A stretch of 64,000 nt of DNA from Staphylococcus phage SAC: sequence record OR234014.1, one strand, 5' to 3'. The notes beneath the pieces are model-generated. The model did not search any database. It saw nothing but the letters and a program-made list of their open reading frames with translations, and was not told the origin of the DNA. The translations under genes were made by a program, and so were the position numbers. Below are positions 3,185-62,326 of this stretch, piece by piece; position 1 is the first letter of the stretch, and every line of letters begins with the position of its first letter.

Positions 3185-3190
3185 ACTTTT

Positions 3191-3641: not shown

Positions 3642-3700
3642 CACTTTTTTAAAACTTTTTTAAGTTTTTTTATTTGTTTGCTGTTCTTTGTTGTGTTCCT

Positions 3701-33358: not shown

Positions 33359-33464
33359 AATAATTAAGCTCCAATCATTATTTTTTACATTATAACATAG
33401 AAAAAACCTCCCTATGTTATTATTTTTTTCACTAATAATATAACAAAAGGGAGGCTTATTCAGG

Positions 33465-34464: not shown

Positions 34465-35479
34465 TTACATCTTCCTTAGTCTCTTTATTAGTAGAGCTAA
34501 GCTCTTCGTAGTAATCTTGTAATGCTTTAAACTCTTCTAATTGAGTAGTGTCTACTTTTGTATTGTTTAAAGGTGCATACTTATGAGGGAAATTCTCGTG
34601 GTAAACTCTACTAAATAATTCTAAGTATAATTCATGGTTGTCCATTAATGTCGGTACCCAATCTTTATCATATTTTTTAATTTCTTCACCATTTAACGTA
34701 ACATAATTACGCCATGTTCCTTTAGTAATTAAACCACGCTCAACGGCTTCTTTATAGATAGTATGATAAGGGTCAACACCGTTTAATTGAATAGTATCTT
34801 CATCAGAACCTACTTCATAACCTGATAATAAATCAACTTCCGCTTTTTGACCAGGTCTAGATAGCTTAGACTTCTTAGTCTCAATACGCATAACATGACC
34901 TTTATACGTAGGTTTACCTGTCATAGCATCATTCTGTTTTAATTCTGATTCTTTACCTTTAGATACTTTAATACGTAAACTAGCACCATGTTCAAAAGCT
35001 CTTCCTCCTGTAGACTTAATAGGGTCATCATAAGGATTACTCATATTTAAATTATCACGTGCTTGGTTAATAACAATTAATCCTGTATTTGTATCATTAA
35101 GCTTAGGTGAAATAGCATTTACTACTTTTTGTGTACTTGTCGCTTTCGTTCCAAGTTTTTTATGGTCTACTCCTGCATCAATTTCATCTTGTGTACGTGT
35201 AGCTCCTAGGGAATCCCAAATGAACAAAATAGGTACGCCTGGTGCTTTCTCATTAAATGTATCAATCCAGTATTCTAACTCTTTACCTACGGTTTCTACT
35301 GATAGTTCAGTAACATTTTTAAGTCTACCTTCACCTGACTGTATTGAGAACAATTTAGATACGTCTACACCTAACTGTTCCATACGTTGGTTATCCGCTG
35401 TTCCTTCAATGTCAATCCAAACTGTAATAACTCCTAATTGTGTTGCTACTCTAGATAAGTGTACTGCAAAAGTCGATTT
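34457..35479 (-). CDS. RecA/UvsX-like recombinase, exon 2
   Basis: Frame opens at 35479 with 'KSTFAVHLSRVATQLGVITVWIDIEGTADNQRMEQLGVDV...', which matches RecA '[31 protein letters not shown]'. Confidence 0.8.
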   Translation of the reverse strand, partial: KSTFAVHLSRVATQLGVITVWIDIEGTADNQRMEQLGVDVSKLFSIQSGEGRLKNVTELSVETVGKELEYWIDTFNEKAPGVPILFIWDSLGATRTQDEIDAGVDHKKLGTKATSTQKVVNAISPKLNDTNTGLIVINQARDNLNMSNPYDDPIKSTGGRAFEHGASLRIKVSKGKESELKQNDAMTGKPTYKGHVMRIETKKSKLSRPGQKAEVDLLSGYEVGSDEDTIQLNGVDPYHTIYKEAVERGLITKGTWRNYVTLNGEEIKKYDKDWVPTLMDNHELYLELFSRVYHENFPHKYAPLNNTKVDTTQLEEFKALQDYYEELSSTNKETKEDVNE

Positions 35480-36839
35480 CAGTTACTACCCCTAGTTTCC
35501 TAGTACTTTAACACTAACTTAATAGTGGGCTTAGACTATATCTTTAATTGCCTGGTATGCAAGTTTTTGTTTTCGGTCTATATGAATATTATTATCTCGA
35601 TATAATGTTTTCATTAATTTTTTAGCTTTTTTACCTGTATAACCTATTCTATAAGAGGTAGAAGTTTTAGATATTGTAGGACATTTAAAACCTAATAAGT
35701 CTTCAATCCAACTACCTACTTCTTTTAAAAATTCAGGATGATTGTTAACTAAAGTTATTGACCATCTATTATTATAACATCCAATAGAACCATCACCATC
35801 AAACAATCCTCTTAAGTAATGTTTCCTTAAATCATAAGGTATGTCTTGTGTTAACCAATCTGTTTTTTTAGTTTTCATAGGTATTATACCATATTTAGCT
35901 AAATCATTACATAGTTTTTCATCGGTAACACTAAAAGTATACGTAGAATTTTCATTTTTTATATAATCTCTTTTTCTATGAGATTCATAAATTTTACTGT
36001 CTGAATTCAATTCTTTTTGAACTCTTTCTACTATTTCTTTATCAATTAACTCTAGTGTTAAGTAACATTGACCTTCTCTTCTATATCTAACACAACCGTC
36101 AGCCATCAATAAACCTAAAATATATGCTTTCTCTTCAGTATCAATTACTTCAAAGAAATCTTTATTAATATTTCTATTAACTCTCCTAGGTTGATAGTAA
36201 GATGTATCAATACCAAAGTCTCTTAATATTTTACTTATCTCTCTTGCATGTGTTGTATAGACTGCTTTTATCTCTGCAATAGTCATAGACTCCTCAGTGT
36301 ACATTCTTAAAATATCTTGTTTTTGTTTACTAGTCCATCTTCTCTTGCTATTTGTGTCAATATTAAACTCATCTAGTACTTTTTTAATTGTAAAGTAATG
36401 TGCATTATACTTTTTTTGTATTTCACTAAATTTCTTACCTTCTTGAAAGGATTTCACTATATCTTGTTTTTCTTCATTAGACCATACTCGTTTTACCATA
36501 TTATACTACTCTCCATTTTAAATAGATTTCGTAGGCAATTCCCACGTACTTCGGTTTCCCTACTCTACTCAGTTACTCACTAATACTTCTCAATATTAGC
36601 TACCTTTTCGATAGTCGTTGAACCTTCTCCATTTTACAGGAGCTTGGATGCTGATTACCTACACTATATAATATAACAGTTTAATAACTCGTTATACCAT
36701 ATAACTCATATACTTGTTATTTTTAACATTCACGCTTACCGTTTCCAGTTACGTTGTAGTTAACAAGTCTTTAAGGCTTCCCAGCAATTCACGTGGATTT
36801 GTAATAACTCATTATAAGCCATTGTGGCTATTTAAGGTA
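35480..36839 (-). mobile_element. group I intron in the recA-like gene (1360 nt) carrying a LAGLIDADG homing endonuclease gene
   Basis: Splits Walker A: exon 1 ends ...YGLTGSG(GGT) and exon 2 starts KSTF. The upstream exon ends in U and the intron ends in G. GC-richer structured flanks. Core motif 'aagatatagtct' about 55 nt from the 3' end. Confidence 0.8.
35531..36499 (-). CDS. LAGLIDADG homing endonuclease (double-motif), intron-encoded
   Basis: Two motifs: 'YILGLLMADGCV' and 'LRGLFDGDGSI'. Confidence 0.8.
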   Translation of the reverse strand: MVKRVWSNEEKQDIVKSFQEGKKFSEIQKKYNAHYFTIKKVLDEFNIDTNSKRRWTSKQKQDILRMYTEESMTIAEIKAVYTTHAREISKILRDFGIDTSYYQPRRVNRNINKDFFEVIDTEEKAYILGLLMADGCVRYRREGQCYLTLELIDKEIVERVQKELNSDSKIYESHRKRDYIKNENSTYTFSVTDEKLCNDLAKYGIIPMKTKKTDWLTQDIPYDLRKHYLRGLFDGDGSIGCYNNRWSITLVNNHPEFLKEVGSWIEDLLGFKCPTISKTSTSYRIGYTGKKAKKLMKTLYRDNNIHIDRKQKLAYQAIKDIV

Positions 36840-37052
36840 ACCACTACCAGTTAATCCGTAAACTTCTGTAAGTCTTCCTAGAGGAATACCTCCACCTAAA
36901 ATTCTATCATATTGTGGAATCATAGTAGGAATGATATTCTTAATATCTGCTCTATTACTATCTGATAGTAAAGTTAAACCTAATTCTTTACCTAAGTCAA
37001 TAGTATTTAAATTTGTAGTATCTACTTCTTTACCTTTTTTTGCTCTAGCCAT
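36840..37052 (-). CDS. RecA/UvsX-like recombinase, exon 1
   Basis: 'IPTMIPQYDRILGGGIPLGRLTEVYGLTGSG' is RecA '[31 protein letters not shown]'. The track ORF reads through into the intron (YLK*). Confidence 0.8.
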
Positions 37053-37114
37053 TATATCATCCTTTTATATGAAATTTAAATAAAAGAGTGCTAAGATAGC
37101 ACTCTATAAAGTTA

Positions 37115-38290
37115 TTATAAATCTAAACCTGCTAATACATCATCTACACTCTTAGGTTGATTTTGTTTAGGTGGTTCTGGTGTTGATTCATTTGTGTTGA
37201 ATGGGATTTGAGAATCGTCAATGTTATTAGCATCAAAGTTCTCAAATGGATTACTTTGTTCTTGTTGTGTTGGTTGCTGTGATGTCTGTTGCTGTGGTGC
37301 TTGTTGCACAGGTGTTCCTTGACCAAACTGTGTATTTTGTTGTGGGGGAACTTGTGGTGTTGGTTGTTGTACAGTATTAAAGTTTGGTTGTGTGTTATTT
37401 TGCCCACCTAAATTATCTGGCAACTGCTGTTCTATGCTTTGTTGCGTAGGAGCTTGTGTTTGCTCTTGTGTTGATGGTTCTTCACCTAATGTGTTTGTTT
37501 CTCTATTGAATTTAAAATTATCATGAGAAACTTCTGTGTTATTAACATTGTTAATCAACCAGTTTACAAAGTTAGGGTTATTTTCTTCTGTTGGTGTAGC
37601 TAACTTATCTAAATCAGATAACTGCTGTTCCCAACCTTGAGGTAAAGCACCTAATTTTACTGTAGGATAAACAGTTACATTCCATGATTTTTCACCTTTT
37701 TTAGCTTTAGCAATATTAATAGGGAATGCATCATCTGCTGAAATAAAGCTATGTGTAGCAGTAGGTGATGGTGATAACATTTTATCTTTTAATCGGTCAA
37801 TCAATTGAGACAGACCTGTATTAGATAGCTCCATAGGTTGGATAACAACATTACCTTGTTCATCTGTGTTAGGAACTAATTGACCGTTTTGATTAAAGTA
37901 TTCAATAACATGAATATATGCTCGTCGTGCAGGTTTATTAGGGAAGTTACTAAATTGTACACCTTGCTTTAACCATGTATTTACATAAGGGTCTACAACA
38001 GATGAGTTAACTTTCTCGGGTAAAGTAAGCATAGAGAACTTTTGTGCTCCATCTTTTTTAACATAGTTAATACCTAGTGTTCTAAATTCCTTAAAGAACT
38101 CATTAGAACCTTCTACAGGCGGTAGTACACGTACAAGTGCAGACTCTTTATTGATTTGGTTACCGTTAGCATCTTTTACTTTACCTAAGCGCAAAACGAG
38201 TTGTTTTGGCTTGTATAATTCTACCTCATTGTCAAAACCACTTGATTGTAGCTTTTCTGATTGCTGATTAATAAATTGATTAAAATCCAT
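37115..38290 (-). CDS. single-stranded DNA-binding protein (T4 gp32-like) with Q/P-rich linker and acidic SSB tail
   Basis: 'LRLGKVKDANGNQINKESALVRVLPP' resembles gp32 'LKLDNAGNGQAVIRFLPS'. Long Q/P/T low-complexity region. C-terminal 'FENFDANNIDDSQIPF' resembles the SSB DDDIPF tail. Confidence 0.55.
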   Translation of the reverse strand: MDFNQFINQQSEKLQSSGFDNEVELYKPKQLVLRLGKVKDANGNQINKESALVRVLPPVEGSNEFFKEFRTLGINYVKKDGAQKFSMLTLPEKVNSSVVDPYVNTWLKQGVQFSNFPNKPARRAYIHVIEYFNQNGQLVPNTDEQGNVVIQPMELSNTGLSQLIDRLKDKMLSPSPTATHSFISADDAFPINIAKAKKGEKSWNVTVYPTVKLGALPQGWEQQLSDLDKLATPTEENNPNFVNWLINNVNNTEVSHDNFKFNRETNTLGEEPSTQEQTQAPTQQSIEQQLPDNLGGQNNTQPNFNTVQQPTPQVPPQQNTQFGQGTPVQQAPQQQTSQQPTQQEQSNPFENFDANNIDDSQIPFNTNESTPEPPKQNQPKSVDDVLAGLDL

Positions 38291-38360
38291 AATATCTTTT
38301 CTCCTTTTATTTTAAAAATTACTTAATTAGTATAACATGTTTTCTTTTGTTTGTCAATAC

Positions 38361-38843
38361 CTAATGTGTAAATGGGTTAGTAACACCACCATTTTTATTT
38401 GTTTGTCTTAGTTCCGCACTAATCTGTACTAACATAGTTGTACGTGTTTCAAAAGCTTTTACGATATAATGTAATTGTTTTTCTCTATAATTCCATGCTT
38501 CTACAACCTTTGCTTGCTGTTGATATTCATCAGAAAGAAATACAGCAGACTCTACTTGGTCTTTTGTAGGTTTCTTTCCCTGTTGTTCGTACTGAGCTCT
38601 AATTTGTAGATTAAGTTGAGCTCCTATTTTTTCTAACTTACGTTGCTCTGCTTCGGTATAATTACTCACACGTTCTTTTAATGAAGCCCACCATGCAAAT
38701 TTAGACGACTGTTGGTACATTTCGTCTTGAATTGTATATTCACTAAGTTTTAGTTCATCATGGATATTAAAAGTCTGAGTGTTTCCATTGTTATCTTTTA
38801 AGGTTAACTCATTGAAATCTAATGTATCTAAATGTATCTCCAT
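38361..38843 (-). CDS. hypothetical protein
   Basis: 160-aa ORF. Confidence 0.5.
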   Translation of the reverse strand: MEIHLDTLDFNELTLKDNNGNTQTFNIHDELKLSEYTIQDEMYQQSSKFAWWASLKERVSNYTEAEQRKLEKIGAQLNLQIRAQYEQQGKKPTKDQVESAVFLSDEYQQQAKVVEAWNYREKQLHYIVKAFETRTTMLVQISAELRQTNKNGGVTNPFTH

Positions 38844-38867
38844 AATACCCTCCTCTATTTTACTGTA

Positions 38868-39557
38868 CTATATAACTTTGAAACTGTCAATATTATTTTT
38901 AATATATTCCGTTTTTTGTTTGTACTGCTCTTCAGTTAGTTTATCTGATTCATAGTAGTCTTTGATTTGTTGTAAGGCTAATTTATACTTAATATATCCT
39001 TTATACGAATTAAATTGCTTTATTAACTCTTCGTTGTATTCTACCATATCATTATATGTTAATCCTATCTCTATATCTGCATCTATAGGATACTGTCTTA
39101 ACTCACCATTAATTTTTATTTTTAAGAAATCATAAGGAAGGTTCTCCATTACATGGACAATAACTTTAGCCATAATATTAACTTCTTCAGGAGGTGAGTC
39201 TACTACAATACTATCATGAACAGTAGCTACTAACTTCGATTTCATATTCTTATTTTGAATAAAGTCGTCAATATAAGTAATAGCCATGTTAGTAAGGTAA
39301 CCACCTGTACCTTGAATAATCGTGTTAAAGGACTGTCTAAGACCCTCATTTTTAATCTTTTTATCTCTAGATTGTGCTGAGTGTATATATCTTCTGTGTC
39401 CATTCATTGTTTCTACATATCCATGTTTTTGAACAAACTCATGAGTTTCATCTATAGACTTCTTAATAGCAGGTTTATTAGAATAAAACTTATTAAATAT
39501 TTCAGTAGCTTCATCAACTGTCATATTATTTTTACCTGCAAACGAAAACTCTGACTC
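38868..39557 (-). CDS. DNA polymerase (family A), exon 2
   Basis: Frame opens at 39557 with 'ESEFSFAGKNNMTVDEATEIF', parallel to Pol I 'MSAFGLARQLNIPRKEAQKY'. Motif C is 'LVATVHDSIVVD'. Confidence 0.8.
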   Translation of the reverse strand, partial: ESEFSFAGKNNMTVDEATEIFNKFYSNKPAIKKSIDETHEFVQKHGYVETMNGHRRYIHSAQSRDKKIKNEGLRQSFNTIIQGTGGYLTNMAITYIDDFIQNKNMKSKLVATVHDSIVVDSPPEEVNIMAKVIVHVMENLPYDFLKIKINGELRQYPIDADIEIGLTYNDMVEYNEELIKQFNSYKGYIKYKLALQQIKDYYESDKLTEEQYKQKTEYIKNNIDSFKVI

Positions 39558-40637
39558 CGTTTATACCCTCGGTTTCCCGATATTTATTAGGGGACTAGAC
39601 TATATCTTAAGTAAATACGTTACTATCTACTTCTAGGCTATTCCATGTAGGTATGAGCTACATGTACTCTACTCGGTTATATTGCAATAAGCCCTCTCGG
39701 CGTAAAGCTCACCTTTTGATAGTCGTTCGATAAAATAATTTAAGTGTTTAAGTGTAATCAAATCGTTCTCTTTTCTCTATTTTGAATGTAATCCCATAAC
39801 AATCTTCACCGGTTTCCATTTTTCTAAAGTTAGTGCCTGACGTAGGTATATTTAGTCTCTTTAGTAGCTTAGTTTTTACTCTATCATAATCAATTTCCAC
39901 ATGATTCTTATAAGCAACATAGTGAGGTGCATAAAGTTTAGAAGGGTTTTCTACAGGTTGATAATTATATTCTTGTAGTGTTTTAAAAACCCAGTTCTTA
40001 TGATGTTTTCTTTCCCCTCTAAGAACTGCAGAAATATGGCTTTGAATTAAGTTATGTTCCTTAGCAAATTTAGACTGATTGAAGAATATATATTCTTTAC
40101 CTGTAGGGTCTATACCTAATATCTTTTTACTTCTTGAAGGTACAAATCCTAAGTTCTCTTCTCTAGTAGCCCATTTACATTTATCTAAGCTATATACTTT
40201 ATTACCTAGTTCTTTAATATCCTTATCTAACACTAACTCACCATTTTTATACTTCTCTAAACTCCAACCATCAATTAACTCTACATCCTTAAGAAAGTTA
40301 TTAAAATTATGCCATCTATCGTCTACTGTTATTCCTAGTAATCCATAATATTTATATTCCTTACATTTAGGATTATAACATCTGTCTATCATATGAGACC
40401 ATACATGAGCTAATTTAGAATATAGCTTATTGTGATTATATCTTTCTCCTATTTTAAATTCTATTTAAATCATCCTTACTTATTAAATTACACTTAAATT
40501 ATTCTACACAGGATTAGCATTTTAAAGCCTTCCCTGTTAGCATAGTTCTTAACTACCATTTCCTGTAGCTCCTAACGTGAACTATACACCCTATACTCAA
40601 TAGGTTTACCTAGTTTTACTACGGCTATATTTTGTTA
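39558..40637 (-). mobile_element. group I intron in the DNA polymerase gene (about 1080 nt) carrying an HNH-type endonuclease gene
   Basis: Inserted inside polymerase motif B (RQASKAVAFGLIYG | ESEFSFA). Exon 1 ends in U (TAC GGT) and the intron ends in G. Core motif 'aagatatagtct' about 50 nt from the 3' end. Confidence 0.75.
39748..40392 (-). CDS. intron-encoded homing endonuclease (HNH_3-like with C-terminal NUMOD/IENR-type HTH)
   Basis: 'LDKCKWATREENLGF' resembles the HNH_3 'NLRWVTRSEN' motif. 'FFNQSKFAKEHNLIQSHISAVLRGERKHHKNWVF' is typical of the C-terminal DNA-binding module of phage HNH/GIY endonucleases. Confidence 0.5.
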   Translation of the reverse strand: MIDRCYNPKCKEYKYYGLLGITVDDRWHNFNNFLKDVELIDGWSLEKYKNGELVLDKDIKELGNKVYSLDKCKWATREENLGFVPSRSKKILGIDPTGKEYIFFNQSKFAKEHNLIQSHISAVLRGERKHHKNWVFKTLQEYNYQPVENPSKLYAPHYVAYKNHVEIDYDRVKTKLLKRLNIPTSGTNFRKMETGEDCYGITFKIEKRERFDYT

Positions 40638-43160
40638 ACCGTAAATTAAACCAAAGGCTACAGCTTTACTGGCTTGTCTTTCTTCTGCTGTTACGTCCTT
40701 CATACTTTTACCATACATAATACTTGCCGTATTTTTATGAATATCTTGTCCTGTTAAAAACATCTCTAACATTTCTTTATCATCTGTATATAGTGCCGTA
40801 ATACGCATCTCTAAGGCACTATAGTCGGCTTGTAAAATTACACCATCTTTAAATCTAGAGATAAAAGAACGTTTAATAGGGTGGTGATAATCAAACTTAT
40901 TTATATCAGATGTATGAGCAGGTAATTGTTGCATATTAATGTTTGAACTACTTAATCGACCTGATGCAGTTCCTGTACTATTATAGTTACCATGTAAATT
41001 ATGTGTATTCTTATTTACTCTTTTAGGTAATTTCTTAGTAAAAGAATTTCTTTTAGTTTGCAAAGAGGCATAATAAATAAGTAAGTCTAGTAGCTTTTTA
41101 TTATCTTCATTCTCAACCAAAGATAATGCCATCTTTATAGACTTAGTATCTGTTTTGTAGTCTTTCCATGATAACTCATCTTCTTTAGTACTATTACTGA
41201 AAGGTTTATCCTTAACTGTCTCTTTACTATAAGGTAACTGTATACCTAAAATGCTATATAATACTTCACCTTTATGGTCTCCTGAGCTTGGTTTGAACTT
41301 CCAACCTTCATCTTTAAATTTAGCTCTATACTCATGTATTTCTTTGTCTCTATCAGATGGTTTCTTCTCATGTTCTGCTAGGGCTAGTTGGTATAAATTA
41401 TACCTAGTTTCTTCAAATTCTTGGATAGCCCAATGCTCTCTAATTTCTTGGTGGGTTTTTTCCATCTCATTAATATAAAATTCATCATTTTTATGCATGT
41501 ATTCTAAGTCACAATGTAAACCATTTGATTGTATTCTAGCTAATGTTCTAATTAATCTAGGGTAACTTATTGACATTAAGTTCAATGCTTTAGGTCTATT
41601 TTGTTCTTTTAACTTTTCAATAACATCACAGTATATTCTTCTACAGACATCGGTGTCACCACTGGCATAAGGATGCATAAGCTCTAATGGAATCCAATCA
41701 TAATTAAAGTCACCTCCATCTACCTCATTAATAACTTTAGTATTGTCCTTATACGTGTTAATTAAATTAATAGATGTACCTAATACATAATCTTTAGCTT
41801 TGTTAGATAAACTCATATACTCGGGTGATGATTCGGCTACTTCTTTAAATTCAGAATCCATAAGCATATTCTTTGTAATAACCTCAGGTGTTAGTTTTAA
41901 CTCTAAGTATCTTTTTTGCTCTTCTGTGATACCATAATACTTATCTTCATCTGTTAGTTCTATATCAATGTTATCGAGTTTATTTTTCAACCAAGTATCA
42001 TACTCATTTGATTTTATGTTATATTCTTTCTTAGCAACTTTTTTATTTTCTTTTTTAATCTCTTTTAGTTTATCTGATAAGAATCTTAGTAGCTTCAATA
42101 CATACCACTCTTTAAAATCTTCAAGAGGTTTGTCATATCCTCCTACATCTGTTACTTCGTAAGCAAGGTCTGATAATCTTAGAGACTCTGCTTGTTCTTG
42201 TGTTACAGCTAAATACCAACCTACCTTAGTGTCTTGATTATTTTCAAAGTCTGTGAAACCTTGTGTTGTCATTAGAAAATTTATATCATAAGTAGCATTA
42301 TGTAGTACCTTAATGTCTTCTTTGCTAGCTACCCATTCTTTTAATAAGGAAAGAATTTCATCAATATCTTGTTGTCCATTCTCCCAAGTAAAGTCTGATT
42401 TATATAAAGGTATTGTAACACCTTGACCATTTTCCCAACTCATTGATAATACTAAGGGTTTACTTCCTTCTCTATCAGGACTAAGTGAGTTAGTTTCTAA
42501 ATCCCATGCGGTAATGTCTACACCGTCATGATTATCATTCTTTACTTCTTTATTAAATATTTCTCTTACACGCTCAATACTTGTAACAAGTTCATACTTA
42601 ACTTCTTTAGGTTTAAATACGTCTTCACCTTGTTCTACAAACTTACCTAATAACTTAAGGTCAGCTACTACATGACGCTCACTATTCTTATTAACGTTTG
42701 TGTACTCTATGCTATAAGTAGGTAATACCCAAACATCATGTTTTTTATCTTCACTAGTAATAGTTACTTTATTAGGTACACCTCTAACTTTACCGATAGC
42801 TGATACATTTAATAAATATTTAACCCCTAGCTTACCTAAAGGAATAATAATATCGTACTTATTGTTTATGATTATTTGACTCATTCTTTCATAGTAAGGT
42901 TTAACTTCAGATAACTTAACGTCTTGGTACTTAATTGTTTTACCATAGTTATTCTTAATAGGTGTAGGTACTTTAGGATATAAAAAATCAATGTCATAAT
43001 CCTTTGTGCTCCTATCTCTATTAATACCAGAAATATTAGACAATAGTTGTTTTAGTACTCTACCATTAGGTGTATTTAATAGTACATTCTTAACACTACC
43101 ATCATTACTAACTGAAAAGTGTTCCTCTCTGATATAGTCGTATAAAATTAAAACTTTCAT
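40638..43160 (-). CDS. DNA polymerase (family A) with 3'-5' exonuclease domain, exon 1
   Basis: Exo I 'ITAWDLETNSL' and Exo III 'YASGDTDVCRRIY'. Pol motif A 'ILQADYSALEMRI' and motif B 'RQASKAVAFGLIYG'. Confidence 0.85.
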
Positions 43161-43192
43161 GTTATTACCAATCCCTTCTTTAACTTAAATAC

Positions 43193-43221
43193 AGTATAGC
43201 ATATCTAATCATAGTAGTCAA
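43193..43221 (-). promoter_or_regulatory. promoter of the DNA polymerase gene (TTGACT-17-TATACT)
   Basis: Minus-strand 'TTGACTactatgattagatatgcTATACT', then RBS AAAGAAGGGA. Confidence 0.55.
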
Positions 43222-43250
43222 TAAAAAAAAGAGGAACTTAATCCTCTTTG
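43221..43250 (-). terminator. rho-independent terminator
   Basis: Minus-strand aaagagga-ttaagt-tcctcttt followed by T8. Overlaps the stop of the HU-like gene. Confidence 0.65.
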
Positions 43251-43540
43251 TTTAATACATCTATAACTTTATCTAATTCAGACAAAGGTTTAAACTTTAG
43301 TGCCTTTCTATTAGGTAAAGTGAAGTATGTTTTATTTAGTCCATCCCATGCTTTTTTACCCTTACGCTCTACTACTTCTATTTGAAAGTACTTATGATTC
43401 TTTACCTTATCGTAATCTTCAAGTAGTAATTCAGAAATAGCTTTTGTTTCTGCTTCTAGTATCTCTTCTACGTCTTGGATATAGTACCCTGTACTCTCAG
43501 ATATCTTTCTTGCTATATCTCTTCTATTTGCTGTACTCAC
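43238..43540 (-). CDS. HU/IHF-like DNA-binding protein
   Basis: 'RRDIARKISESTGYYIQDVEEILEAETKAISELLLEDYDKV...KYFQIEVVERKGKKAWDGLNKTYFTLPNRKALKFKPLSEL' follows the HU fold pattern (F.V..R.ar.GrNP.T.....P....f.pgk.L). Confidence 0.65.
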   Translation of the reverse strand: MSTANRRDIARKISESTGYYIQDVEEILEAETKAISELLLEDYDKVKNHKYFQIEVVERKGKKAWDGLNKTYFTLPNRKALKFKPLSELDKVIDVLNKED

Positions 43541-43548
43541 AAAATCAC

Positions 43549-44151
43549 CTAAATCTTAATCTTTCTTTGTCTTTTTAATTCAGTAAGTAGGTCTTCTATT
43601 ATTTCATAATCTTTATTTTCTTTACTAGCAAGAATATAGATATACATTTTCCACACGGACAAAGAAACCCTTAATTTGTCTGCAAAGTCAAGCGTATACC
43701 TAGGTTTTAGTTTATAAGCTTCTTTATCATACGTGTAGTACTTACCTTGTTTAGCGTCTATAGAACTAATACGAGGGAATGATAGATGAACCTCGTCTAC
43801 ATTCGTTTTAACATCGTATAAACTTCTAATAATATCGTAAGGATTGACGTAAGGAAATACAACTGAAATATCAATAATGACTTTTGTTCCCATGAAACTC
43901 AAAGCTATATTATCCATATCTTTGTTACTAAACTTACTACGCATTCTATATACAACTGATGATTTAGGGTGAGCTGATAAATCTTTAAGCACATAGTAAG
44001 GAATTACTGAATCGGTATAGTATGTTACTTGTCCACCGTGCTTGCATATTTTTTCAATCAACTTATCATTGTTATACTTCTCATTAAATAGCATGTAATG
44101 TTTATCATCTCTTAGTATATACCTAGTTGATTTATTAGCTAAGTTGTCCAT
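43549..44151 (-). CDS. hypothetical protein
   Basis: 200-aa ORF. Confidence 0.5.
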   Translation of the reverse strand: MDNLANKSTRYILRDDKHYMLFNEKYNNDKLIEKICKHGGQVTYYTDSVIPYYVLKDLSAHPKSSVVYRMRSKFSNKDMDNIALSFMGTKVIIDISVVFPYVNPYDIIRSLYDVKTNVDEVHLSFPRISSIDAKQGKYYTYDKEAYKLKPRYTLDFADKLRVSLSVWKMYIYILASKENKDYEIIEDLLTELKRQRKIKI

Positions 44152-44357
44152 ATCTTTTTCTATCTCATCTTCATTTAAAGTTGTAACTTTAATAGCTTTA
44201 GATAATTCATCTTTGTTTTTTACATGTATATTAAAATATCTATCACTATTATATATAGTTAATGTTTTATTTTTTGCGATAACTATTCATCCTTTCATGA
44301 AAAAACCTACTACCTTTTACTAATATAAGTATAGCATAAGTAGTAGGTAATTACAAA

Positions 44358-44690
44358 TTAAAGTAAATCTAATTCCATTAAGTTTTTAGGTGTTACTTGG
44401 TCTTCGAACTTCTTAGCAAGTTCCCCATCTTTATATCCAATAAGTACAGGTGTACTCATAATGTCAAATAACTTGACCGCTTTTTCTCTATCTACATCTT
44501 TATCATCTAAGTTAATAACATAAACAGGTTTAGTAATATCTCCTTCTGCTTCGAAAAGAGGAATCACACTTTTTAAAATTTCACATTTAGCACACTCATC
44601 TTGTGTAACCATGACAATAACATCCTGTTTTTGTCTGATTGTTGTATTTAACTCTAATAAACTATTCACTTTTTCCATTTTCTGTATCAT
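44358..44690 (-). CDS. thioredoxin/glutaredoxin-like protein (NrdH-like redoxin)
   Basis: CxxC active site 'DECAKCE' in a redoxin-sized protein of about 110 aa. Adjacent to the nrd genes. Confidence 0.6.
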   Translation of the reverse strand: MIQKMEKVNSLLELNTTIRQKQDVIVMVTQDECAKCEILKSVIPLFEAEGDITKPVYVINLDDKDVDREKAVKLFDIMSTPVLIGYKDGELAKKFEDQVTPKNLMELDLL

Positions 44691-44988
44691 CCTTTTCTAG
44701 TGTGTCAATAATATCTTTAAATGTTTCAATATCAGCTACATGTGTTAACTGCACCATACCATCAGCTTTAAATAACTTCAATGTACCTTCGTATATAAGA
44801 ATGTATACATATGTATTATAAATAAACTCTAGCTGAAATTTACTGGATTTACTATCTGCTTTAGTATCATCTCCCCTATTAAACATCTTAATAGGGTCTT
44901 GTACATTACTTACTTGTGAGAAAATATCATTTGATTTGAATATATCTTCAGTTCTACTTAGTAATCCAAACGCTTCTTTTTTATTCAT
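44662..44988 (-). CDS. hypothetical protein
   Basis: 108-aa ORF between nrdE and the redoxin gene. Confidence 0.45.
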   Translation of the reverse strand: MNKKEAFGLLSRTEDIFKSNDIFSQVSNVQDPIKMFNRGDDTKADSKSSKFQLEFIYNTYVYILIYEGTLKLFKADGMVQLTHVADIETFKDIIDTLEKDDTENGKSE

Positions 44989-45000
44989 TTAGTCACCTCT

Positions 45001-45936
45001 TTAGGCTTCACAATTAATACAAATTTTAGATAAATTGAATTGTTGTGATGCATTTGTACCATGTTGATAATACAATGACTTAATACCATTAGACCATGCA
45101 AAGAGATAAAGTTCATTTAACTCCTCTGCTGTAACATGTTTAGGGTTAATCATAATGTTTATAGATTGTCCTTGGTCAATATATTTTTGTCTTGTAGAAG
45201 CTTGGTCTAATATATTATATTGATTAATTTCACCATATGTTTTAAATACTTCCTTTTCATAATCACTTAAGAAAGTTAGGTGTTGAACGGAACCATCATT
45301 GTCCCTAATACTCTCAATAACTTTTTTATTGTCCTTTCCTTTTTCTTTTAATAGTCTTTTAAGGTAAGGATTAATCATAGTTTTCTTTACTTTAGCAGTG
45401 TCTACAACGTAATAATTACTCATAAAAGGTTCAATTGATTTAGAAACTTGACCTAGGATAAATGAGCTCGAAGTCGTAGGAGCTACCGCCATCAAACACG
45501 AATTCCTTCTACCATACCCTTTAAGAATAGTAGGCTCTCCATAAAGTTTAGCTAACTGCTCACTAGCTTTATAAGTTTTTTCTTTTAATAATTTAAATAT
45601 CTCTTCATTAATTTGACTAGCTTTAATACTTTCAAAAGGTATGAGTTTTGATTGTAGGTATGAATGATATCCAAGAACGCCTATTCCTAAGGCTCTGTTC
45701 TCAACAGAAAAGTTATAAGCTCTCTCCATAAATTTAAATGCTTCTTGTTTATCTTTTTCAGCTGAGTCTCTTAGATATTCTAAGTCTCTAATAAACTCAG
45801 ACATAACAGCATCTAAAAAGTAAACAAGTGTCTCTACAGCATCCGTGTGTTTCCATTCATCATACTTAACAAGGTTCATACTAGATAGGTCACATACAAA
45901 TGACCAATCTTCTTTATTAGGTAACATAATTTCACT
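45001..45936 (-). CDS. nrdE: ribonucleotide reductase large subunit NrdE-like, exon 2
   Basis: Frame opens with 'SEIMLPNKEDWSFVCDLSSMNL', which is NrdE 'SEILQVN...CNLGSLNL'. C-terminal Cys pair 'KICINCEA'. Confidence 0.8.
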   Translation of the reverse strand, partial: SEIMLPNKEDWSFVCDLSSMNLVKYDEWKHTDAVETLVYFLDAVMSEFIRDLEYLRDSAEKDKQEAFKFMERAYNFSVENRALGIGVLGYHSYLQSKLIPFESIKASQINEEIFKLLKEKTYKASEQLAKLYGEPTILKGYGRRNSCLMAVAPTTSSSFILGQVSKSIEPFMSNYYVVDTAKVKKTMINPYLKRLLKEKGKDNKKVIESIRDNDGSVQHLTFLSDYEKEVFKTYGEINQYNILDQASTRQKYIDQGQSINIMINPKHVTAEELNELYLFAWSNGIKSLYYQHGTNASQQFNLSKICINCEA

Positions 45937-46775
45937 CCTACATGTTCAATAGTGGTCGTTAATCACTACCAGTTCTCTAATTAACAATATTTATAGTTAG
46001 GGAATTTTTCAGAATTACATCTTCTGGTTAATGTATTTCTGTTTATTCCTAGCTCTTCAGAGCATATACCCATATTTTTATAAACTACGCCATCAACAAT
46101 AACTTTTTTAGCATTAGCGCTTTCTTTACCATACATCGGATTGTTTTTTCCTCGTCTATCCATTATATTCCACCCAAAACCTATCTCCATATTATAACCT
46201 TTTTTTACAGATTCGTACATGTCTATAAAAATTTGCTCTACCATGTAAGCAAACTTTTTATCCTCTGTACTAAAAGTGTATAATTCTTCTACATAAAAAT
46301 TCTCTTCACCATGTTTCATCATTGATTGGTGTAAATTAGTTGTTGAGCCTATCTTAGCTTTTCTAATATGATTTTTAAATCTATGTTGAACTGTTTTTGA
46401 TGTAATTCCGATGTATATTTTATTATTGTTTTTGTTTGTAATTTTATAAATATGGTACTCCATTTTCGACCCTCTTAATTATTATTGTTAATATGAACTT
46501 CTATATGTTTCCATATAGAGCAGACTATATCATCTTCCTTAATAAGGAAGTCCACCATTTCGATTTAAATAAGATTTACTTGATTATTACTCAATACTTA
46601 TACCACTTGGCTCTAACCTTATCCCTTCACTTATGTGAATAGGTTACGGATAGTCGTTAGGCATTTACAGATTTATAATCTGATTTAGCACGGTGTTGTC
46701 GTATATTTTAACTTAGATATTCACCGTTTAGATGGATTTTTCGATAGTAATTACTTACTAAAGGTGCAAATTTTT
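45937..46775 (-). mobile_element. group I intron in nrdE (839 nt) carrying a GIY-YIG homing endonuclease gene
   Basis: Splits the active-site 'SNLC|SEI'. Exon 1 ends TGT (U) and the intron ends ...GTAGG (G). The 'gatatagtct' core (46531-46545, minus) is 5' of the ORF. Confidence 0.8.
45981..46463 (-). CDS. GIY-YIG homing endonuclease, intron-encoded
   Basis: 'HIYKITNKNNNKIYIGITSKTVQHRFKNH' is the GIY-(10)-YIG motif with the conserved R. Confidence 0.8.
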   Translation of the reverse strand: MEYHIYKITNKNNNKIYIGITSKTVQHRFKNHIRKAKIGSTTNLHQSMMKHGEENFYVEELYTFSTEDKKFAYMVEQIFIDMYESVKKGYNMEIGFGWNIMDRRGKNNPMYGKESANAKKVIVDGVVYKNMGICSEELGINRNTLTRRCNSEKFPNYKYC

Positions 46776-47522
46776 ACACAAATTTGAGTTATTAATAGTC
46801 AATCCTTTGTCTTTATATACATCTACTGTATTACTATTTGCATTATCATGAAAGAAGATATAGGGGTATCCTATTTGTGTTCTTCTTGTTAATACTTTAG
46901 CCCATGTTTTTCTTTTTTCTTTGTCCCCATTAATCATGTCTAATAACCAATCATCAGTAACTGTTACCGCATGTGTTAAGTTTTGAATTGGATTACCTTC
47001 GGTACCAATCTCTAAAAACTCGTCAATATCTTTGTGTTCTATAGGTAGATAAGGGCTAAATCTTCCTCTTCTTTGGCTACCCTGACTTATCGTATCTGTC
47101 ATTTGCTCAAATAGCTTCATAAAATGAACGGAACCACTTGTCAGTCCATTATCAGTGATTTCTGAGCCTCTAGGTCTGATGTTACCGAAGTAACCACTTG
47201 TACCACCACCGTATTTACTCATCATACCTACTTCACTAGCAGTATTAAGTATCGATGGTATAGTATCATCTACCCAACTACCAAAACAACTAATACTAAA
47301 TCCTCTATCTTTCCCGAAATTAGACCATATAGGACTGGATAAGGAATAATAACCTTTACTCATATAATCATAAAACTTGTCAGAAAACCCATCAATACCT
47401 AAAATATCTTCAGCGTAATCTGCAATATCTTTAATTCTTTGTTCTGGTGTTTCACCATCACTTAAATAACCACGTTCTAGAAAAACTCTAGAATCATTAT
47501 TTAACCATTCAAAATTACTCAT
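46776..47522 (-). CDS. nrdE: ribonucleotide reductase large subunit NrdE-like, exon 1 (N-terminally short)
   Basis: 'SCFGSWVDDT' loop, 'GGGTSGYFGNIRPRGSEI', 'GYPYIFFHDNAN', and ends 'SNLC'. It starts about 95-140 aa later than typical NrdE. Confidence 0.8.
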
Positions 47523-47537
47523 CTATATACACTGCCT

Positions 47538-48875
47538 TTATATCATTTTTAGTCTTAAAATAGCGTTTACTTTATCTTTAGTAACTCGTTTACCAGTATT
47601 TTCAAAATCAGATTCCGTTGAAAAAATAGTATCTTCCGTTACAGAATTACTAAATTTTGTATAGTTTACAGAACGTTTAGATAAAAAGTCCGTTAACTTA
47701 GTACTAATAACTTCATCATCAAACCATGACACTTCACTTAGTAACTCTTCATCAACATCAAAAAGTTTAGTATACCCAACAGCTACTAGAGAGTTATTAA
47801 GCCTATTTTTAATAAATTCTTGTACTACTTTCTTAGGTAAGAACTCTAGTTCCCCATCTTCATACATCCAATCAAGTAACCGTGTTTCTGATTCATAAGA
47901 TTTTTTACAGGCTGTGTAAACTGCATCTTCCATTTCTTTGTTGAACCACTCAGGTCTTTCTTCTCTAAGAATATTAATGATTTCTGTTCCAAATAATCCA
48001 TGGATTTGCTCTTCTTTAGATGTAGCTTCAATAGCATTTGATAAACCTCTAAATAAGTTTTTATATTTATTAAAACTCATCATAATTAAAAATTGACTAA
48101 ATAAAGATACATGTTCAATAAATATAGAAAATAATAAAACAGATAGTACGTAATCTCTATCATCCTCACTCTTACTTAGTTTTACATGCATCGCTAACTC
48201 ATCAACACGTTCTTTAAGAGCAGGAATATCGTCAATTGTTTTAAACTCCTCATTCAAACCTAAAATCTCTAATAAATGTGAATAAGCGTCGGCATGACGT
48301 GCTTCACTCTCACTAAAAGTTGCACCCACAGCTCCAGTTTCCCATTTAGGCATTCTATGATATAGGTCACCCCAGAAAGTCTTTACTGCTACTTCTACTT
48401 GGGCAATTGCTAGCATAGCTTTTTTAATGGTCATTTGCTCATTGTATTTAACGTTATTCTTATAGTCTTGAATATCTGATGTATAGTTAAACTCAGTGTG
48501 TACCCAGTAACTTTGGCGTATAGCATCTTTATATTCTAATAATTCAGGGTATTCATAGGGTTTTAATTCTTTTCTTGGTTTGAATAAGTCTCTTTTACGC
48601 TCTCTTTTCTTTTTATCCCTATATAAAATAAAAGCTTTAGCAGTATCTTTATACATACTACTAAATAAAACTTCTTCTACTATATCTTGTATTAATTCTA
48701 CAGTAATGATAGTGTCTTGTTCTTCTAGTAAAGAGTCTACGTCATCTACAAGAGAATCAATAACATCTTCAATATATTCTTCTGTTTCTGAGTTGGCTCT
48801 TAAAATAGCATTAGTAACTTTACTTAAATCATAATCTACAACGGAACCATCACGTTTTTTTATTTGTGTAATCAA
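47538..48875 (-). CDS. nrdF: ribonucleotide reductase small subunit (R2/NrdF-like) with N-terminal ATP-cone domain
   Basis: N-terminal 'ITQIKKRDGSVVDYDLSKVTNAILRA...VELIQDIVEEVL...AKAFILYR' is ATP-cone consensus (VIKRDG..E.F...KI..AI; EEIQD.VE; A.AYI.YR). R2 core 'SESEARHADAY' (ExxH + Y radical), 'EEQIHGLFG', and C-terminal 'DFLSKRSVNYTK...ESDF'. Confidence 0.8.
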   Translation of the reverse strand: MITQIKKRDGSVVDYDLSKVTNAILRANSETEEYIEDVIDSLVDDVDSLLEEQDTIITVELIQDIVEEVLFSSMYKDTAKAFILYRDKKKRERKRDLFKPRKELKPYEYPELLEYKDAIRQSYWVHTEFNYTSDIQDYKNNVKYNEQMTIKKAMLAIAQVEVAVKTFWGDLYHRMPKWETGAVGATFSESEARHADAYSHLLEILGLNEEFKTIDDIPALKERVDELAMHVKLSKSEDDRDYVLSVLLFSIFIEHVSLFSQFLIMMSFNKYKNLFRGLSNAIEATSKEEQIHGLFGTEIINILREERPEWFNKEMEDAVYTACKKSYESETRLLDWMYEDGELEFLPKKVVQEFIKNRLNNSLVAVGYTKLFDVDEELLSEVSWFDDEVISTKLTDFLSKRSVNYTKFSNSVTEDTIFSTESDFENTGKRVTKDKVNAILRLKMI

Positions 48876-60240: not shown

Positions 60241-61551
60241 CTACTTTCCTAATTCTTTAATTTCAAATTTTTCTTCTTCATATATTTTTCTACGCTCATT
60301 AGAATGTTTATATAAAAACTTATGTGTCATATCATTAAAATCAAATATCTGTGTTGTATTATCTTCTTTCTTTTTACGTAACGCACGACCTACACGTTGT
60401 AGTGTTTGTCGTAAAGATTTACCACCTGCACCTAGGATTAATGAACGAATACCACTGATATCAACACCCTCATCAATAAGGCTTGTAGCAATCATAACTT
60501 TAAGTTTACCATTACGCATTTCATCTAACTTTTGTTTACGCATATCCGACTCTATTTCACCATGTAAAAAGAAATTCTCTACACCCATTTCATTCAACAT
60601 AGTGGATAGTATTTCACCATGCTCAACAAAATTAATAATAATAAGCGTAGCTTTATCTTGATTATACCACTTAGCTGTTAGTTTTGCAATAAGTTTATTT
60701 CTAAACTCGTTATGTACAATACCTTTATTATATGCATCCCTGTAATCCTTAATATTATCTATATCATCAGGGTTAGCAATAGGGATAATATTTATTGTAG
60801 GTCTAGCTGAATAGCCATTCTCGATTAAAAACTCATTAGATGTTCTTACAATAATATCTCCGAATAATGCTTGCATACGCATCCATAGTAGCTCATCTTT
60901 CATGTCTATGGAGCCTGTTAGTGCTATCCTGTATAGTGCATTCTCACAGGACATTAAACTTGTATACCATGAATCTGATTTACTGTGATGTGCTTCATCA
61001 ACTATCATTACAGCTATAGAGTCTAGGAACTCACGCATTTTATGATATTTATCATAGCTCTTTTGATTTTTCTTTCTTACTTCTTTTTGGAAAATAACAT
61101 TATGATTGTTTAATGCCATTAATACTTCAGCATCCGTCTTTGAATTATGATAAATATCTTGAAGTATATCAAGCACATTCTGCTCTACTTTAGTTTTAGG
61201 TGTTGTACTTTCTAATAATAACTTAAGTAACCTTTTTTGATTTTTACCACCTTCAAATTTAGGAAGTATCTCTTTAGCTATCTTTTTACTTAAGTTTACT
61301 TTAGCAGATACTTTTACTCCTTCTGTAGGGTCTTTTAAGTTAGAGTTAACAGTAGGAATCATAACTACAGTTACTTGTTTAACATCAAACTTACCAGAAC
61401 CTACTTTACCTACTGATATATTCAATCGTTCACTTAAACGGTCAGCAGATTGATTAAAAATCTCAGTAGAACTTGTAAAAAAAGCTACACGCTCTCCTTT
61501 TTCTAGTTGTGGTAATAGTTGGTCTATGATACCGCTAGCAACCTCTGTTTT
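60241..61551 (-). CDS. SF2 (DEAH-box) helicase, exon 2
   Basis: 'MIVDEAHHS' (motif II) and 'LQRVGRALRKKK' (motif VI). The track's 'M' at 61554 is a TTG inside the intron 3' end. Confidence 0.8.
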   Translation of the reverse strand, partial: KTEVASGIIDQLLPQLEKGERVAFFTSSTEIFNQSADRLSERLNISVGKVGSGKFDVKQVTVVMIPTVNSNLKDPTEGVKVSAKVNLSKKIAKEILPKFEGGKNQKRLLKLLLESTTPKTKVEQNVLDILQDIYHNSKTDAEVLMALNNHNVIFQKEVRKKNQKSYDKYHKMREFLDSIAVMIVDEAHHSKSDSWYTSLMSCENALYRIALTGSIDMKDELLWMRMQALFGDIIVRTSNEFLIENGYSARPTINIIPIANPDDIDNIKDYRDAYNKGIVHNEFRNKLIAKLTAKWYNQDKATLIIINFVEHGEILSTMLNEMGVENFFLHGEIESDMRKQKLDEMRNGKLKVMIATSLIDEGVDISGIRSLILGAGGKSLRQTLQRVGRALRKKKEDNTTQIFDFNDMTHKFLYKHSNERRKIYEEEKFEIKELGK

Positions 61552-61798
61552 CAATTATGTTACGATTAGGTTCGTTACTCCTAACCTTCTTGTAGTCTCC
61601 TACAAAGTTCAGACTATATCTTAACCATATCTAATGAGACTTAGGTTCTCCCTGTTTCCAATCACTTGATTGTACATAATAGTCGTTGCACCTTCCTAGT
61701 AATTTATTAAGCTTGGCTCATGATTGTCTCAAATGAGAGAGTTCCCATGAATTAAAGGAGTTACACTTATAATATTTCTACTATAAGGGGCAAAATTT
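61552..61798 (-). mobile_element. small ORF-less group I intron (about 247 nt) in the helicase gene
   Basis: Splits Walker A 'ATNAGK|TEV'. Exon 1 ends GGT (U) and the intron ends ...TTG (G). GC-richer structured sequence with the 'aagatatagtct' core about 60 nt from the 3' end. In-frame stops in the intervening sequence. Confidence 0.7.
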
Positions 61799-62236
61799 AC
61801 CTGCATTGGTAGCTTGCTTACATATACCATTATAATTGACTAAACTATTAAACACAGCTTCATACTGATAGTCACGTAATGTAATCTTACCTACGTTATT
61901 ATCTAGTAGCTGTATTTCATCATCAATATCTTCTTCAGCTAAAAAGCTTTCAGATTTTTCATCAATAATTTCGTATTGAAAGTTATGTCTTGATTGTAAC
62001 TCACCTAGTAATGTTATCATCTTAGGTAACAACCCACTAGGGAATTTGTTCTCAGCATAATCGTAGAAATCCACATAACCATCCCACACACCTCGTTTAA
62101 AAGCTAAGCTATGTTGATAGCCCTCTTTCTTAGCTCCTAACGTTTTATGAACACGCTTAAGTATGATATCTTTAATATACCCGTCACTTTCATCAAAATC
62201 TACATATGTATATATATTCTGTTGTCTTAATTGCAT
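61799..62236 (-). CDS. SF2 helicase, exon 1
   Basis: 'LRDYQYEAV' (Q-motif/Ia-like) and Walker A start 'ATNAG'. Confidence 0.75.
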
Positions 62237-62294
62237 ATATTCTCCTTTCTTTTTATTCCTTTATTATCTTACCATATTTATTAAAGTTAGTCAA

Positions 62295-62326
62295 GAAAAA
62301 AAAAGACTAGGAATTATCCTAGTCTA
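62295..62326 (-). terminator. rho-independent terminator
   Basis: Minus-strand agactagg-ataatt-cctagtct followed by T9. Confidence 0.7.

What the first reader, a model, noticed from the sequence alone, without database searches (positions are those of the whole stretch)
61552..61798. Compact ORF-less group I intron in the SF2 helicase Walker A motif
The helicase is split into 61799..62236 ('...ATNAG') and 60241..61551 ('KTEV...DEAH...'). About 247 nt of GC-richer sequence lies between them, containing in-frame stops and the same 'aagatatagtct' core seen in the three ORF-containing introns. The track's 'MKTEV' start is a TTG in the intron's last codon. The exact splice point is ambiguous by up to 3 nt because AAA sits on both sides.
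Basis: partly seen in the sequence, partly recalled or inferred. Interest (0 to 1): 0.6.

Follow-up and report, generated by a model that had tools for sequence, protein, structure and literature searches.

The report
Known helicase group I intron, Silviavirus
The 247-base stretch that splits this Staphylococcus phage helicase gene is a real, ORF-less self-splicing group I intron sitting inside the ATP-binding loop codons, but it has already been reported and annotated in this phage group, so it is ordinary.

Summary
The window is a Silviavirus (Staphylococcus phage StAP1, 100% identical; Romulus/Remus, 99.4%). Rfam's group I intron model hits 61589..61808 (- strand) at 91 bits, E 5e-22. Removing 61552..61798 (247 nt) joins the two ORFs into a 582-aa SF2 helicase. 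Its Walker A motif, ATNAG|KTEV, is colinear without a gap with intron-less homologues from Kayvirus, Baoshanvirus, Listeria, Enterococcus and Bacillus phages.

The 3-nt boundary ambiguity is resolved by the group I rules. Only this register puts a U (61799) before the 5' splice site and a G (61552) as the last intron base.

I mapped P1-P9.1. Ten related introns give strong covariation: 91.9% of cells paired against 36-50% in slid controls, and 32 pairs with compensatory changes. There is no ORF longer than 33 aa inside, and exon 2 has no ribosome-binding site.

Papers on Romulus/Remus and KSAP7/11 report the helicase intron, and several GenBank records label it Intron_gpI.

Side results:
- Silviaviruses VL10 and CF5 carry the intron one codon upstream, with a matching guide-sequence change.
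- Twort has an intein one codon downstream.

Splicing itself was not tested here.

The parts
61799..62236 (-). Helicase exon 1 (146 codons, ATG 62236 to GGT ending at U 61799). An AAGGAG ribosome-binding site lies just upstream of the ATG.
   Evidence: Colinear with residues 1-146 of intron-less homologues.
61552..61798 (-). ORF-less group I intron, 247 nt. It starts at A 61798 and ends at omega-G 61552.
   Evidence: Rfam RF00028 at 91 bits, E 5e-22. Boundaries rest on the U(-1)/omega-G rule and on the protein alignment. No ORF longer than 33 aa inside.
60241..61551 (-). Helicase exon 2 (436 codons plus stop). It begins AAA ACA GAG = KTE and carries the DEAH motif and the Helicase_C domain.
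61789..61801 (-). P1. Exon GGU plus intron AA (61801-61797) pairs with UUGCC of the internal guide sequence (61793-61789). U61799 and G61791 form the wobble pair at the 5' splice site. The guide's U run 61795-61792 can instead pair with the first four A's of exon 2 (61551-61548) as P10.
   Evidence: P1 also appears in the MFE fold.
61766..61787 (-). P2: 9-bp hairpin closed by a GAAA tetraloop.
61690..61760 (-). P3 5' strand (61760-61755) and the P4-P5-P6-P6a domain (61750-61690).
   Evidence: Compensatory changes seen in P3, P4, P5, P6 and P6a.
61659..61684 (-). P7 5' strand GACUA (61684-61680) and a single peripheral hairpin, P7.2 (61672-61659). The P7.1 hairpin present in many relatives is absent here.
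   Evidence: (all 5 P7.2 pairs show double changes).
61625..61653 (-). P3 3' strand AGGGAG (61653-61648) and P8 (61645-61625).
61611..61622 (-). J8/7 plus P7 3' strand, AAGAUAUAGUCU. This is the most conserved core segment of the family. Together with 61680-61684 it forms P7, which holds the guanosine-binding site.
   Evidence: (invariant in all 10 relatives).
61564..61606 (-). P9 (7 bp, GAGA loop, 61606-61589) and P9.1 (7 bp, 61586-61564). A conserved CGUAACA tail follows and leads to omega-G.
62266..62325 (-). Terminator-like hairpin of the upstream gene (62325-62304) and a promoter-like site, TTGACT-17-TAAGAT (62294-62266), ahead of exon 1.
   Evidence: These are consensus matches only, and promoter-like sites are not enriched over shuffles.

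Best explanation
This is a self-splicing, ORF-less group I intron of the Twort-type phage lineage, consistent with subgroup IA. It interrupts the SF2 (UvsW/DhlA-like) helicase gene of a Silviavirus between the G146 and K147 codons of the Walker A motif.

Shown here:
- the helicase reading frame is restored exactly when 61552..61798 is removed;
- the RNA has a covariation-supported group I core.

Inferred mechanism:
- The gene is transcribed as one pre-mRNA from upstream of 62236.
- The intron folds into P1-P9.1, with the P3/P7 pseudoknot.
- The guide sequence 5'-UUUUGCC pairs with exon-1 GGU, giving the U61799-G61791 wobble.
- An external guanosine bound in P7 attacks after U61799.
- The same U run then pairs with the AAAA that starts exon 2 (P10), omega-G 61552 enters the G site, and the exons are ligated.
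- The ligated message is ...GCA GGU AAA ACA... and encodes a continuous 582-aa helicase.

The AAA at the intron's 5' end and the AAA(A) at the start of exon 2 are alternative partners of that one U run. This explains the duplicated AAA that made the boundary look ambiguous.

The intron has no endonuclease gene and occurs in all roughly 48 Silviavirus records examined. Today it is therefore mainly inherited vertically and kept functional by selection for an intact helicase.

Not shown here: splicing itself, in vivo or in vitro.
For: - Rfam RF00028 gives a full-length hit, 91 bits, E 5.2e-22.
- The spliced product is 582 aa. Its ATNAG|KTEV motif aligns without a gap to uninterrupted helicases of Kayvirus (also 582 aa), Baoshanvirus, Listeria, Enterococcus and Bacillus phages. 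Pfam finds ResIII and Helicase_C on it.
- The base before the 5' splice site is U, and the last intron base is G.
- P1 and P10 pairings are present.
- Across 68 proposed pairs in 10 related introns, 91.9% of cells are paired against 36-50% for slid controls. Thirty-two pairs show changes on both sides against 2-12 in slid controls, and 0 of 500 shuffles reach the observed score.
- P7 and J8/7 are invariant.
- Variation among Silviavirus copies falls in peripheral loops or is compensatory, for example P7.2 CAAUC/GAUUG to CAUCC/GGAUG and the P5 replacement in Koomba-kaat_1.
- There is no Shine-Dalgarno sequence before the TTG 'start' of exon 2, while exon 1 has AAGGAG.
- Relatives at 72-78% identity include the Twort tail-tube (orf142) introns. 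From my own knowledge (Landthaler & Shub 1999; Golden et al. 2005, both cited in PMC5618024 and PMC3984707), these self-splice in vitro.
- Papers state that the Romulus/Remus helicase gene is split by a group I intron (PMC7497331, PMC5526547).
- GenBank PV017447.1 and PV295866.1 label this spot Intron_gpI.
Against: - No RNA or protein data for this gene were available, so splicing is inferred.
- P1 has only 3 pairs with the exon plus 2 with the intron.
- The P7.1 hairpin found in many relatives, including Twort intron 2, is missing. Activity might therefore depend on protein help or be reduced.
- The unconstrained MFE fold is only modestly better than shuffles (z = -2.0) and does not reproduce the pseudoknotted core.
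- The Romulus record carries a predicted promoter inside the intron. My own scan did not find it.
Confidence: 0.93

Rival explanations
1. Split helicase. The two ORFs are translated separately: 151 aa ending ...AGKFCPL, and 437 aa starting at the TTG. They then assemble non-covalently, and the intervening RNA is a dead relic.
For: Most GenBank records annotate two CDSs in exactly this way. A TTG start exists at 61554. The Romulus record has a predicted promoter inside the intervening stretch.
Against: The break lies between the G and K of the P-loop, so neither piece would have an intact Walker A. There is no ribosome-binding site within 20 nt of the TTG. The intervening RNA keeps a full, covarying ribozyme core with invariant P7 and J8/7 across lineages, which a relic would not. 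The boundaries obey the U(-1)/omega-G rule.
Confidence: 0.04
2. Decayed intron in a pseudogene. The helicase is no longer needed in Silviavirus, and the intron is no longer able to splice.
For: Romulus and Remus label the region only 'similar to DNA helicase' as a misc_feature. P7.1 has been lost.
Against: Both exons stay open and in frame in all roughly 48 Silviavirus records, and are 77% identical in protein to Kayvirus DhlA. Intron changes are compensatory. Introns of Baoshanvirus (terminase) and PG-2021_27 also lack P7.1, yet sit in otherwise intact genes.
Confidence: 0.03

Closest known systems
The helicase group I intron of Silviavirus phages Romulus/Remus (Vandersteegen et al. 2013; Lavigne & Vandersteegen 2013), also annotated Intron_gpI in PV017447.1 and PV295866.1
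   Same: It is the same element. The intron sequence is 100% identical to Remus, at the same site and in the same gene.
   Different: Nothing of substance. Most records still annotate two CDSs that run into the intron. I could not read the two primary papers and rely on how later papers cite them.
Twort orf142 (tail tube) introns I1-I3 and the Kayvirus tmpA introns. Twort I2 is the ribozyme whose crystal structure is published.
   Same: They share 72-78% nucleotide identity over most of the length, the same core, GNRA-capped P2 and P9, a P7.2 hairpin, and the ORF-less compact form.
   Different: The host gene differs (tail tube versus helicase). Twort I2, and helicase or hydrolase introns such as VL10, CF5 and PH15, have a P7.1 hairpin that the window intron lacks.
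Helicase intron of Silviavirus VL10 (OP940114) and CF5 (PP034390)
   Same: Same gene, same Walker A motif and a homologous intron: 84% identity to VL10, with near-identical P3-P8 and P9.1.
   Different: It is inserted one codon upstream (ATNG|GKTE). The guide sequence is UUACUGCC rather than UUUUGCC, so P10 matches GGUAA rather than AAAA. It also has P7.1.
Twort-type helicase intein (Twort, S25-4, BE08, 184DA)
   Same: A self-splicing mobile element in the same P-loop of the orthologous helicase.
   Different: It is a protein-level element of about 420 aa, inserted between K147 and T148. That is 3 nt downstream of the window's intron site.

Membership tests
Group I intron (Rfam RF00028) | Conserved core fold P3-P8 with the P3/P7 pseudoknot, scored by a covariance model | tested here: met
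   91 bits against a gathering score of 50, E 5.2e-22, model positions 1-253.
Group I intron (Rfam RF00028) | Helices supported by compensatory changes in relatives | tested here: met
   32 of 68 pairs change on both sides. 91.9% of cells are paired against 36-50% in slid controls. 0 of 500 shuffles reach the observed score.
Group I intron (Rfam RF00028) | 5' splice site after a U that forms a U-G wobble with an internal guide sequence (P1) | tested here: met
   U61799 pairs with G61791, flanked by G-C, G-C and two A-U pairs. P1 is also seen in the MFE fold.
Group I intron (Rfam RF00028) | Terminal guanosine (omega-G) at the 3' splice site, with P10 pairing to the 3' exon | tested here: met
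   G61552 is the last intron base. P10 has 4 A-U pairs.
Group I intron (Rfam RF00028) | Conserved guanosine-binding P7 and J8/7 | tested here: met
   GACUA/UAGUC and AAGAUAUAGUC are invariant in 10 relatives. This is sequence-level evidence only.
Group I intron (Rfam RF00028) | Removal restores the host reading frame exactly | tested here: met
   The 582-aa product is colinear with intron-less homologues.
Group I intron (Rfam RF00028) | Guanosine-dependent self-splicing | not testable with these tools
   Needs an in vitro splicing assay or RT-PCR.
Subgroup IA2 (phage type) | Extra P7.1 and P7.2 helices between P7 and the P3 3' strand | tested here: inconclusive
   Only one hairpin (P7.2) is present. 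VL10, CF5, PH15 and Twort I2 have both.
Mobile (homing) group I intron | Intron-encoded homing endonuclease ORF | tested here: not met
   The longest ORFs touching the intron are 32-33 aa.
Intein | Continuous in-frame coding through the insertion | tested here: not met
   Two stops follow 5 codons into the insertion.
Group II intron | Six-domain structure, typically more than 600 nt | tested here: not met
   No Rfam group II hit in the window, and the element is only 247 nt.

The most novel reading that the evidence does not exclude
The Walker A codons of this helicase are a hot spot with three adjacent occupancy sites within 6 nt:
- a type B intron after G145 (VL10, CF5);
- the window's type A intron after G146;
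- the Twort intein after K147.

Types A and B would be the same intron lineage that moved by exactly one codon between the two GGU codons and retuned its guide sequence (UUACUGCC to UUUUGCC) to keep P10. That would be a documented case of group I intron 'sliding'. The drop in exon identity next to the intron in VL10 would mark a recent allele replacement by homing-like recombination, even though the intron has no endonuclease gene.
Probability: 0.45. Interest if true: 0.4.

Novelty: already known. Interest (0 to 1): 0.2.

Why it matters
The practical value is for annotation. Most of the roughly 48 Silviavirus records, several from therapy-candidate phages, list two bogus CDSs. One reads 5 codons into the intron and the other starts at a TTG inside it. 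The correct annotation is one joined 582-aa helicase. The intron is also a compact, P7.1-less relative of the structurally solved Twort ribozyme. The one-codon offset between the two Silviavirus alleles gives a small natural experiment on how guide sequences track a shifted insertion site. None of this changes what is understood about group I introns.

Tried and rejected
- I looked for an intron-less Silviavirus allele, which would show an empty homing site. A 600-nt spliced-junction query found only two-piece matches among the listed Silviavirus records. One-piece matches occurred only in other genera at 77% identity or less.
- I tried Rfam at E <= 0.1 on 33000-48500 to confirm the three other intron cores. 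It found nothing, presumably because large ORF insertions break the model.
- The unconstrained MFE fold recovers P1, P2, P9 and P9.1 but not the pseudoknotted core, and z is only -2.0. I did not use it as evidence for the core.
- The primary papers (Vandersteegen et al. 2013, tried by DOI and by a PMC id recalled from memory) are not in the library. Lavigne & Vandersteegen 2013 could not be read either.
- I did not build my own covariance model. The roughly 270-position alignment would exceed the calibration limit.
- Intein, group II intron, pseudogene and split-protein readings were considered and rejected (see the rival explanations and the membership test).

Full report
**Identity of the window.** The 2.3-kb region around the finding is 100% identical to Staphylococcus phage StAP1 (KX532239). 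It is 99.4% identical to Romulus and Remus, the founding members of the genus Silviavirus (Herelleviridae, Twortvirinae).

**Check of the observation.**
- On the minus strand, ORF 61781..62236 ends '...NGICKQATNAGKFCPL*'.
- ORF 60241..61554 starts at a TTG and reads 'MKTEVASG...MIVDEAHHSK...'.
- Between GGT (ending at 61799) and AAA (starting at 61551) lie 247 nt. In the exon-1 frame these read KFCPL**.
- The TTG is the last three bases of that stretch, and the StAP1 record starts its second CDS there.
- AAGATATAGTCT is at 61611-61622. It recurs exactly at 35533 and 39597, and with one mismatch at 46522.
- The GC difference is real but small: 34.4% against 32.6% and 31.5% in the exons.

**What it is.**
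- Rfam's group I intron model matches 61589..61808 (-) end to end at 91 bits (gathering score 50), E 5.2e-22. It is the only gathering-level RNA hit in the 64-kb window.
- Joining 61799 to 61551 gives a 582-aa protein with ResIII and Helicase_C domains.
- At the junction it reads ATNAG|KTEV. It aligns without any gap to the uninterrupted helicases of a Kayvirus (ATNGGKTEV, also 582 aa), Baoshanvirus BS1, a Listeria Pecentumvirus, an Enterococcus phage and Bacillus phage Deep Blue (ATNAGKTEC).
- The intron therefore sits between the G and K codons of the P-loop.

**Exact boundaries.** Group I introns cut after a U that wobble-pairs with a G of the guide sequence, and they end in G. Only the register 61798..61552 satisfies both rules: U61799 precedes the intron and G61552 ends it. 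Shifting by 1-3 nt puts an A in both places.

The guide sequence 5'-UUUUGCC-3' (61795-61789) pairs GCC with exon GGU. Its U's pair either with the intron's own leading A's (the P1 extension) or with the AAAA that opens exon 2 (P10, four pairs). That dual use is the likely reason for the duplicated AAA. This last step is my inference.

**Structure.** I mapped the helices as follows:

| Helix | Coordinates (- strand) |
|---|---|
| P1 | 61801-61789 |
| P2 (9 bp, GAAA loop) | 61787-61766 |
| P3 | 61760-61755 with 61653-61648 |
| P4 | 61750-61745 with 61723-61718 |
| P5 | 61740-61727 |
| P6 and P6a | 61717-61690 |
| P7 | 61684-61680 with 61616-61612 |
| P7.2 | 61672-61659 |
| P8 | 61645-61625 |
| P9 (GAGA loop) | 61606-61589 |
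| P9.1 | 61586-61564 |

I tested this structure on an alignment of ten related introns. Seven are helicase copies: the window, four other type A Silviavirus copies, VL10 and CF5. The other three are the Baoshanvirus Golestan101 terminase intron, RSM-J51Sa and PG-2021_27.
- 91.9% of cells are paired, against 36-50% when the 3' partners are slid by 1-3 columns.
- 32 of 68 pairs carry changes on both sides, against 2-12 in the slid controls.
- No shuffle out of 500 reaches the observed covariation score.
- P7 never varies.
- P7.2, P9, P6a and P9.1 are rich in compensatory changes.
- Even among near-identical Silviavirus copies the differences are compensatory or lie in loops.
- The unconstrained MFE fold recovers only P1, P2, P9 and P9.1 (z = -2.0), as expected for a pseudoknotted ribozyme.

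**ORF-less and dependent on splicing.** No ORF longer than 33 aa touches the intron. The 20 nt before the TTG contain no Shine-Dalgarno element, whereas exon 1 has AAGGAG ahead of its ATG. It also follows a terminator-like hairpin and a promoter-like site. Two separately made fragments would each lack a complete P-loop. I therefore put the split-protein and pseudogene readings at a few percent each.

**Relatives and distribution.**
- The intron alone finds 48 records at 90% identity or more, all Silviavirus-type.
- At 72-78% identity it finds introns in other genes: the three Twort tail-tube (orf142) introns, the two Kayvirus tmpA introns, a Baoshanvirus terminase intron, and PH15's tail hydrolase intron.
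- A spliced-junction query gave two-piece matches in every Silviavirus record listed. It gave one-piece (intron-less) matches in Kayvirus, Sepunavirus, Baoshanvirus and Listeria phages.
- The intron is thus fixed in the genus and absent from this site elsewhere.

**Prior knowledge.**
- The KSAP7/KSAP11 paper states that in Remus and Romulus the helicase gene, among others, is split or contains a group I intron, and that KSAP orf47-48 are arranged likewise (PMC7497331).
- Another paper lists the helicase among intron-containing genes of Romulus/Remus, K and G1 (PMC5526547).
- The CIFT Silviavirus paper reports five group I introns per genome (PMC13346280).
- Its GenBank record PV017447.1 labels this very spot Intron_gpI.
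- The Romulus record marks the gene as a single 'similar to DNA helicase' feature.
- The primary sources (Vandersteegen et al. 2013; Lavigne & Vandersteegen 2013) are not held in the library.
- The feature is therefore already known. I found no statement that splicing of this particular intron has been shown experimentally.

**Side results.**
1. Silviavirus VL10 (S. aureus) and CF5 (S. warneri) carry a homologous helicase intron one codon upstream (ATNG|GKTE). Their guide sequence is UUACUGCC. It forms a 5-6-bp P10 with GGUAA(G), whereas the window's UUUUGCC fits AAAA. The cross-combinations do not pair.
2. Between VL10 and the window the exons are 97-100% identical far from the intron. Identity falls to 73-80% in the 30 nt next to it, and the introns are 84% identical. 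This pattern is typical of allele replacement with co-conversion of the flanks.
3. The CF5 record joins in frame only if the last intron base is an A, or if one G of a G run is missing.
4. In Twort and several other phages the same P-loop holds an intein between K147 and T148, 3 nt downstream of the window's intron site.
5. The window-type intron lacks the P7.1 hairpin that VL10, CF5, PH15 and Twort intron 2 have.

**Verdict.** The finding is correct in observation and interpretation, its boundaries included. It describes an element already reported for this phage genus, so interest is low. The remaining open point is experimental proof of splicing. The one-codon offset between alleles is a minor lead that I did not find described in the papers I could read.

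Noticed in passing
window 35531-36499 (-), 39597-40392 (-), 46470-46760 (-): There are three more group I-like 3' cores (A[A/T]GATATAGTCT followed by GNRA-capped hairpins). One lies at the 3' end of a LAGLIDADG endonuclease ORF (35531-36499). One is downstream of an I-HmuI-like endonuclease ORF (39748-40392). One is just downstream of a ribonucleotide reductase exon (46758-47522). Rfam finds none of them even at E <= 0.1.
   Followed up: partly
L023 (OP940114 VL10) 785-1040; L014 (PP034390 CF5) 1101-1356: These two Silviaviruses carry a homologous helicase intron one codon upstream of the window's site (ATNG|GKTE). The guide sequence is changed to match (UUACUGCC pairs with GGUAA of exon 2), and a P7.1 hairpin is present.
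   Followed up: yes
L023 versus window 61552-62236 and 60750-61551: Exon identity between VL10 and the window is 97-100% away from the intron but drops to 73-80% in the 30 nt flanking it. This looks like a co-conversion tract from an intron allele exchange.
   Followed up: partly
L014 (CF5) around 1345-1360, ...CAACTAGGTAAGACA: As deposited, the CF5 helicase joins in frame only if the last intron base is A. If splicing follows the G, the frame is lost and P10 fails. A missing G in the G run (a sequencing error) or a non-canonical omega base would explain it.
   Followed up: partly
L015 (Twort MT151386) CDS 689-3703: The Twort orthologous helicase carries an intein of about 420 aa between K147 and T148 of the same Walker A motif (...ATNGGK|CISMD...VNHN|TECASG...). 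That is 3 nt downstream of the window's intron site. S25-4, BE08 and 184DA show the same break point.
   Followed up: partly
window 61672-61680 (-): The window-type intron has only UUAUGUA where VL10, CF5, PH15 and Twort intron 2 have a P7.1 hairpin (for example UUCC-GAAA-GGAA). The Baoshanvirus terminase intron, RSM-J51Sa and PG-2021_27 lack it too.
   Followed up: partly
L024 (OP263969 Koomba-kaat_1) about 385-415: This type A copy has the P5 hairpin replaced by a longer, unrelated stem-loop (CCUU...AAGG). The rest of the intron is conserved.
   Followed up: no
L001 (Romulus JX846613) 2170-2198, approximately window 61703-61731 (-): The Romulus record annotates a MEME-predicted promoter inside the intron (P5-P6 region). 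My consensus scan did not report it. Most Silviavirus records annotate two CDSs that run into the intron, one adding KFCPL* and the other using the TTG start.
   Followed up: partly
L006 (Lactobacillus phage Lbab1 MT758689) CDS 301-3114: The orthologous helicase is annotated as one 937-aa CDS. The tblastn match to the 582-aa spliced query comes in two pieces spanning 2754 nt. This suggests an in-frame insertion (possibly an intein) whose position I did not determine.
   Followed up: no
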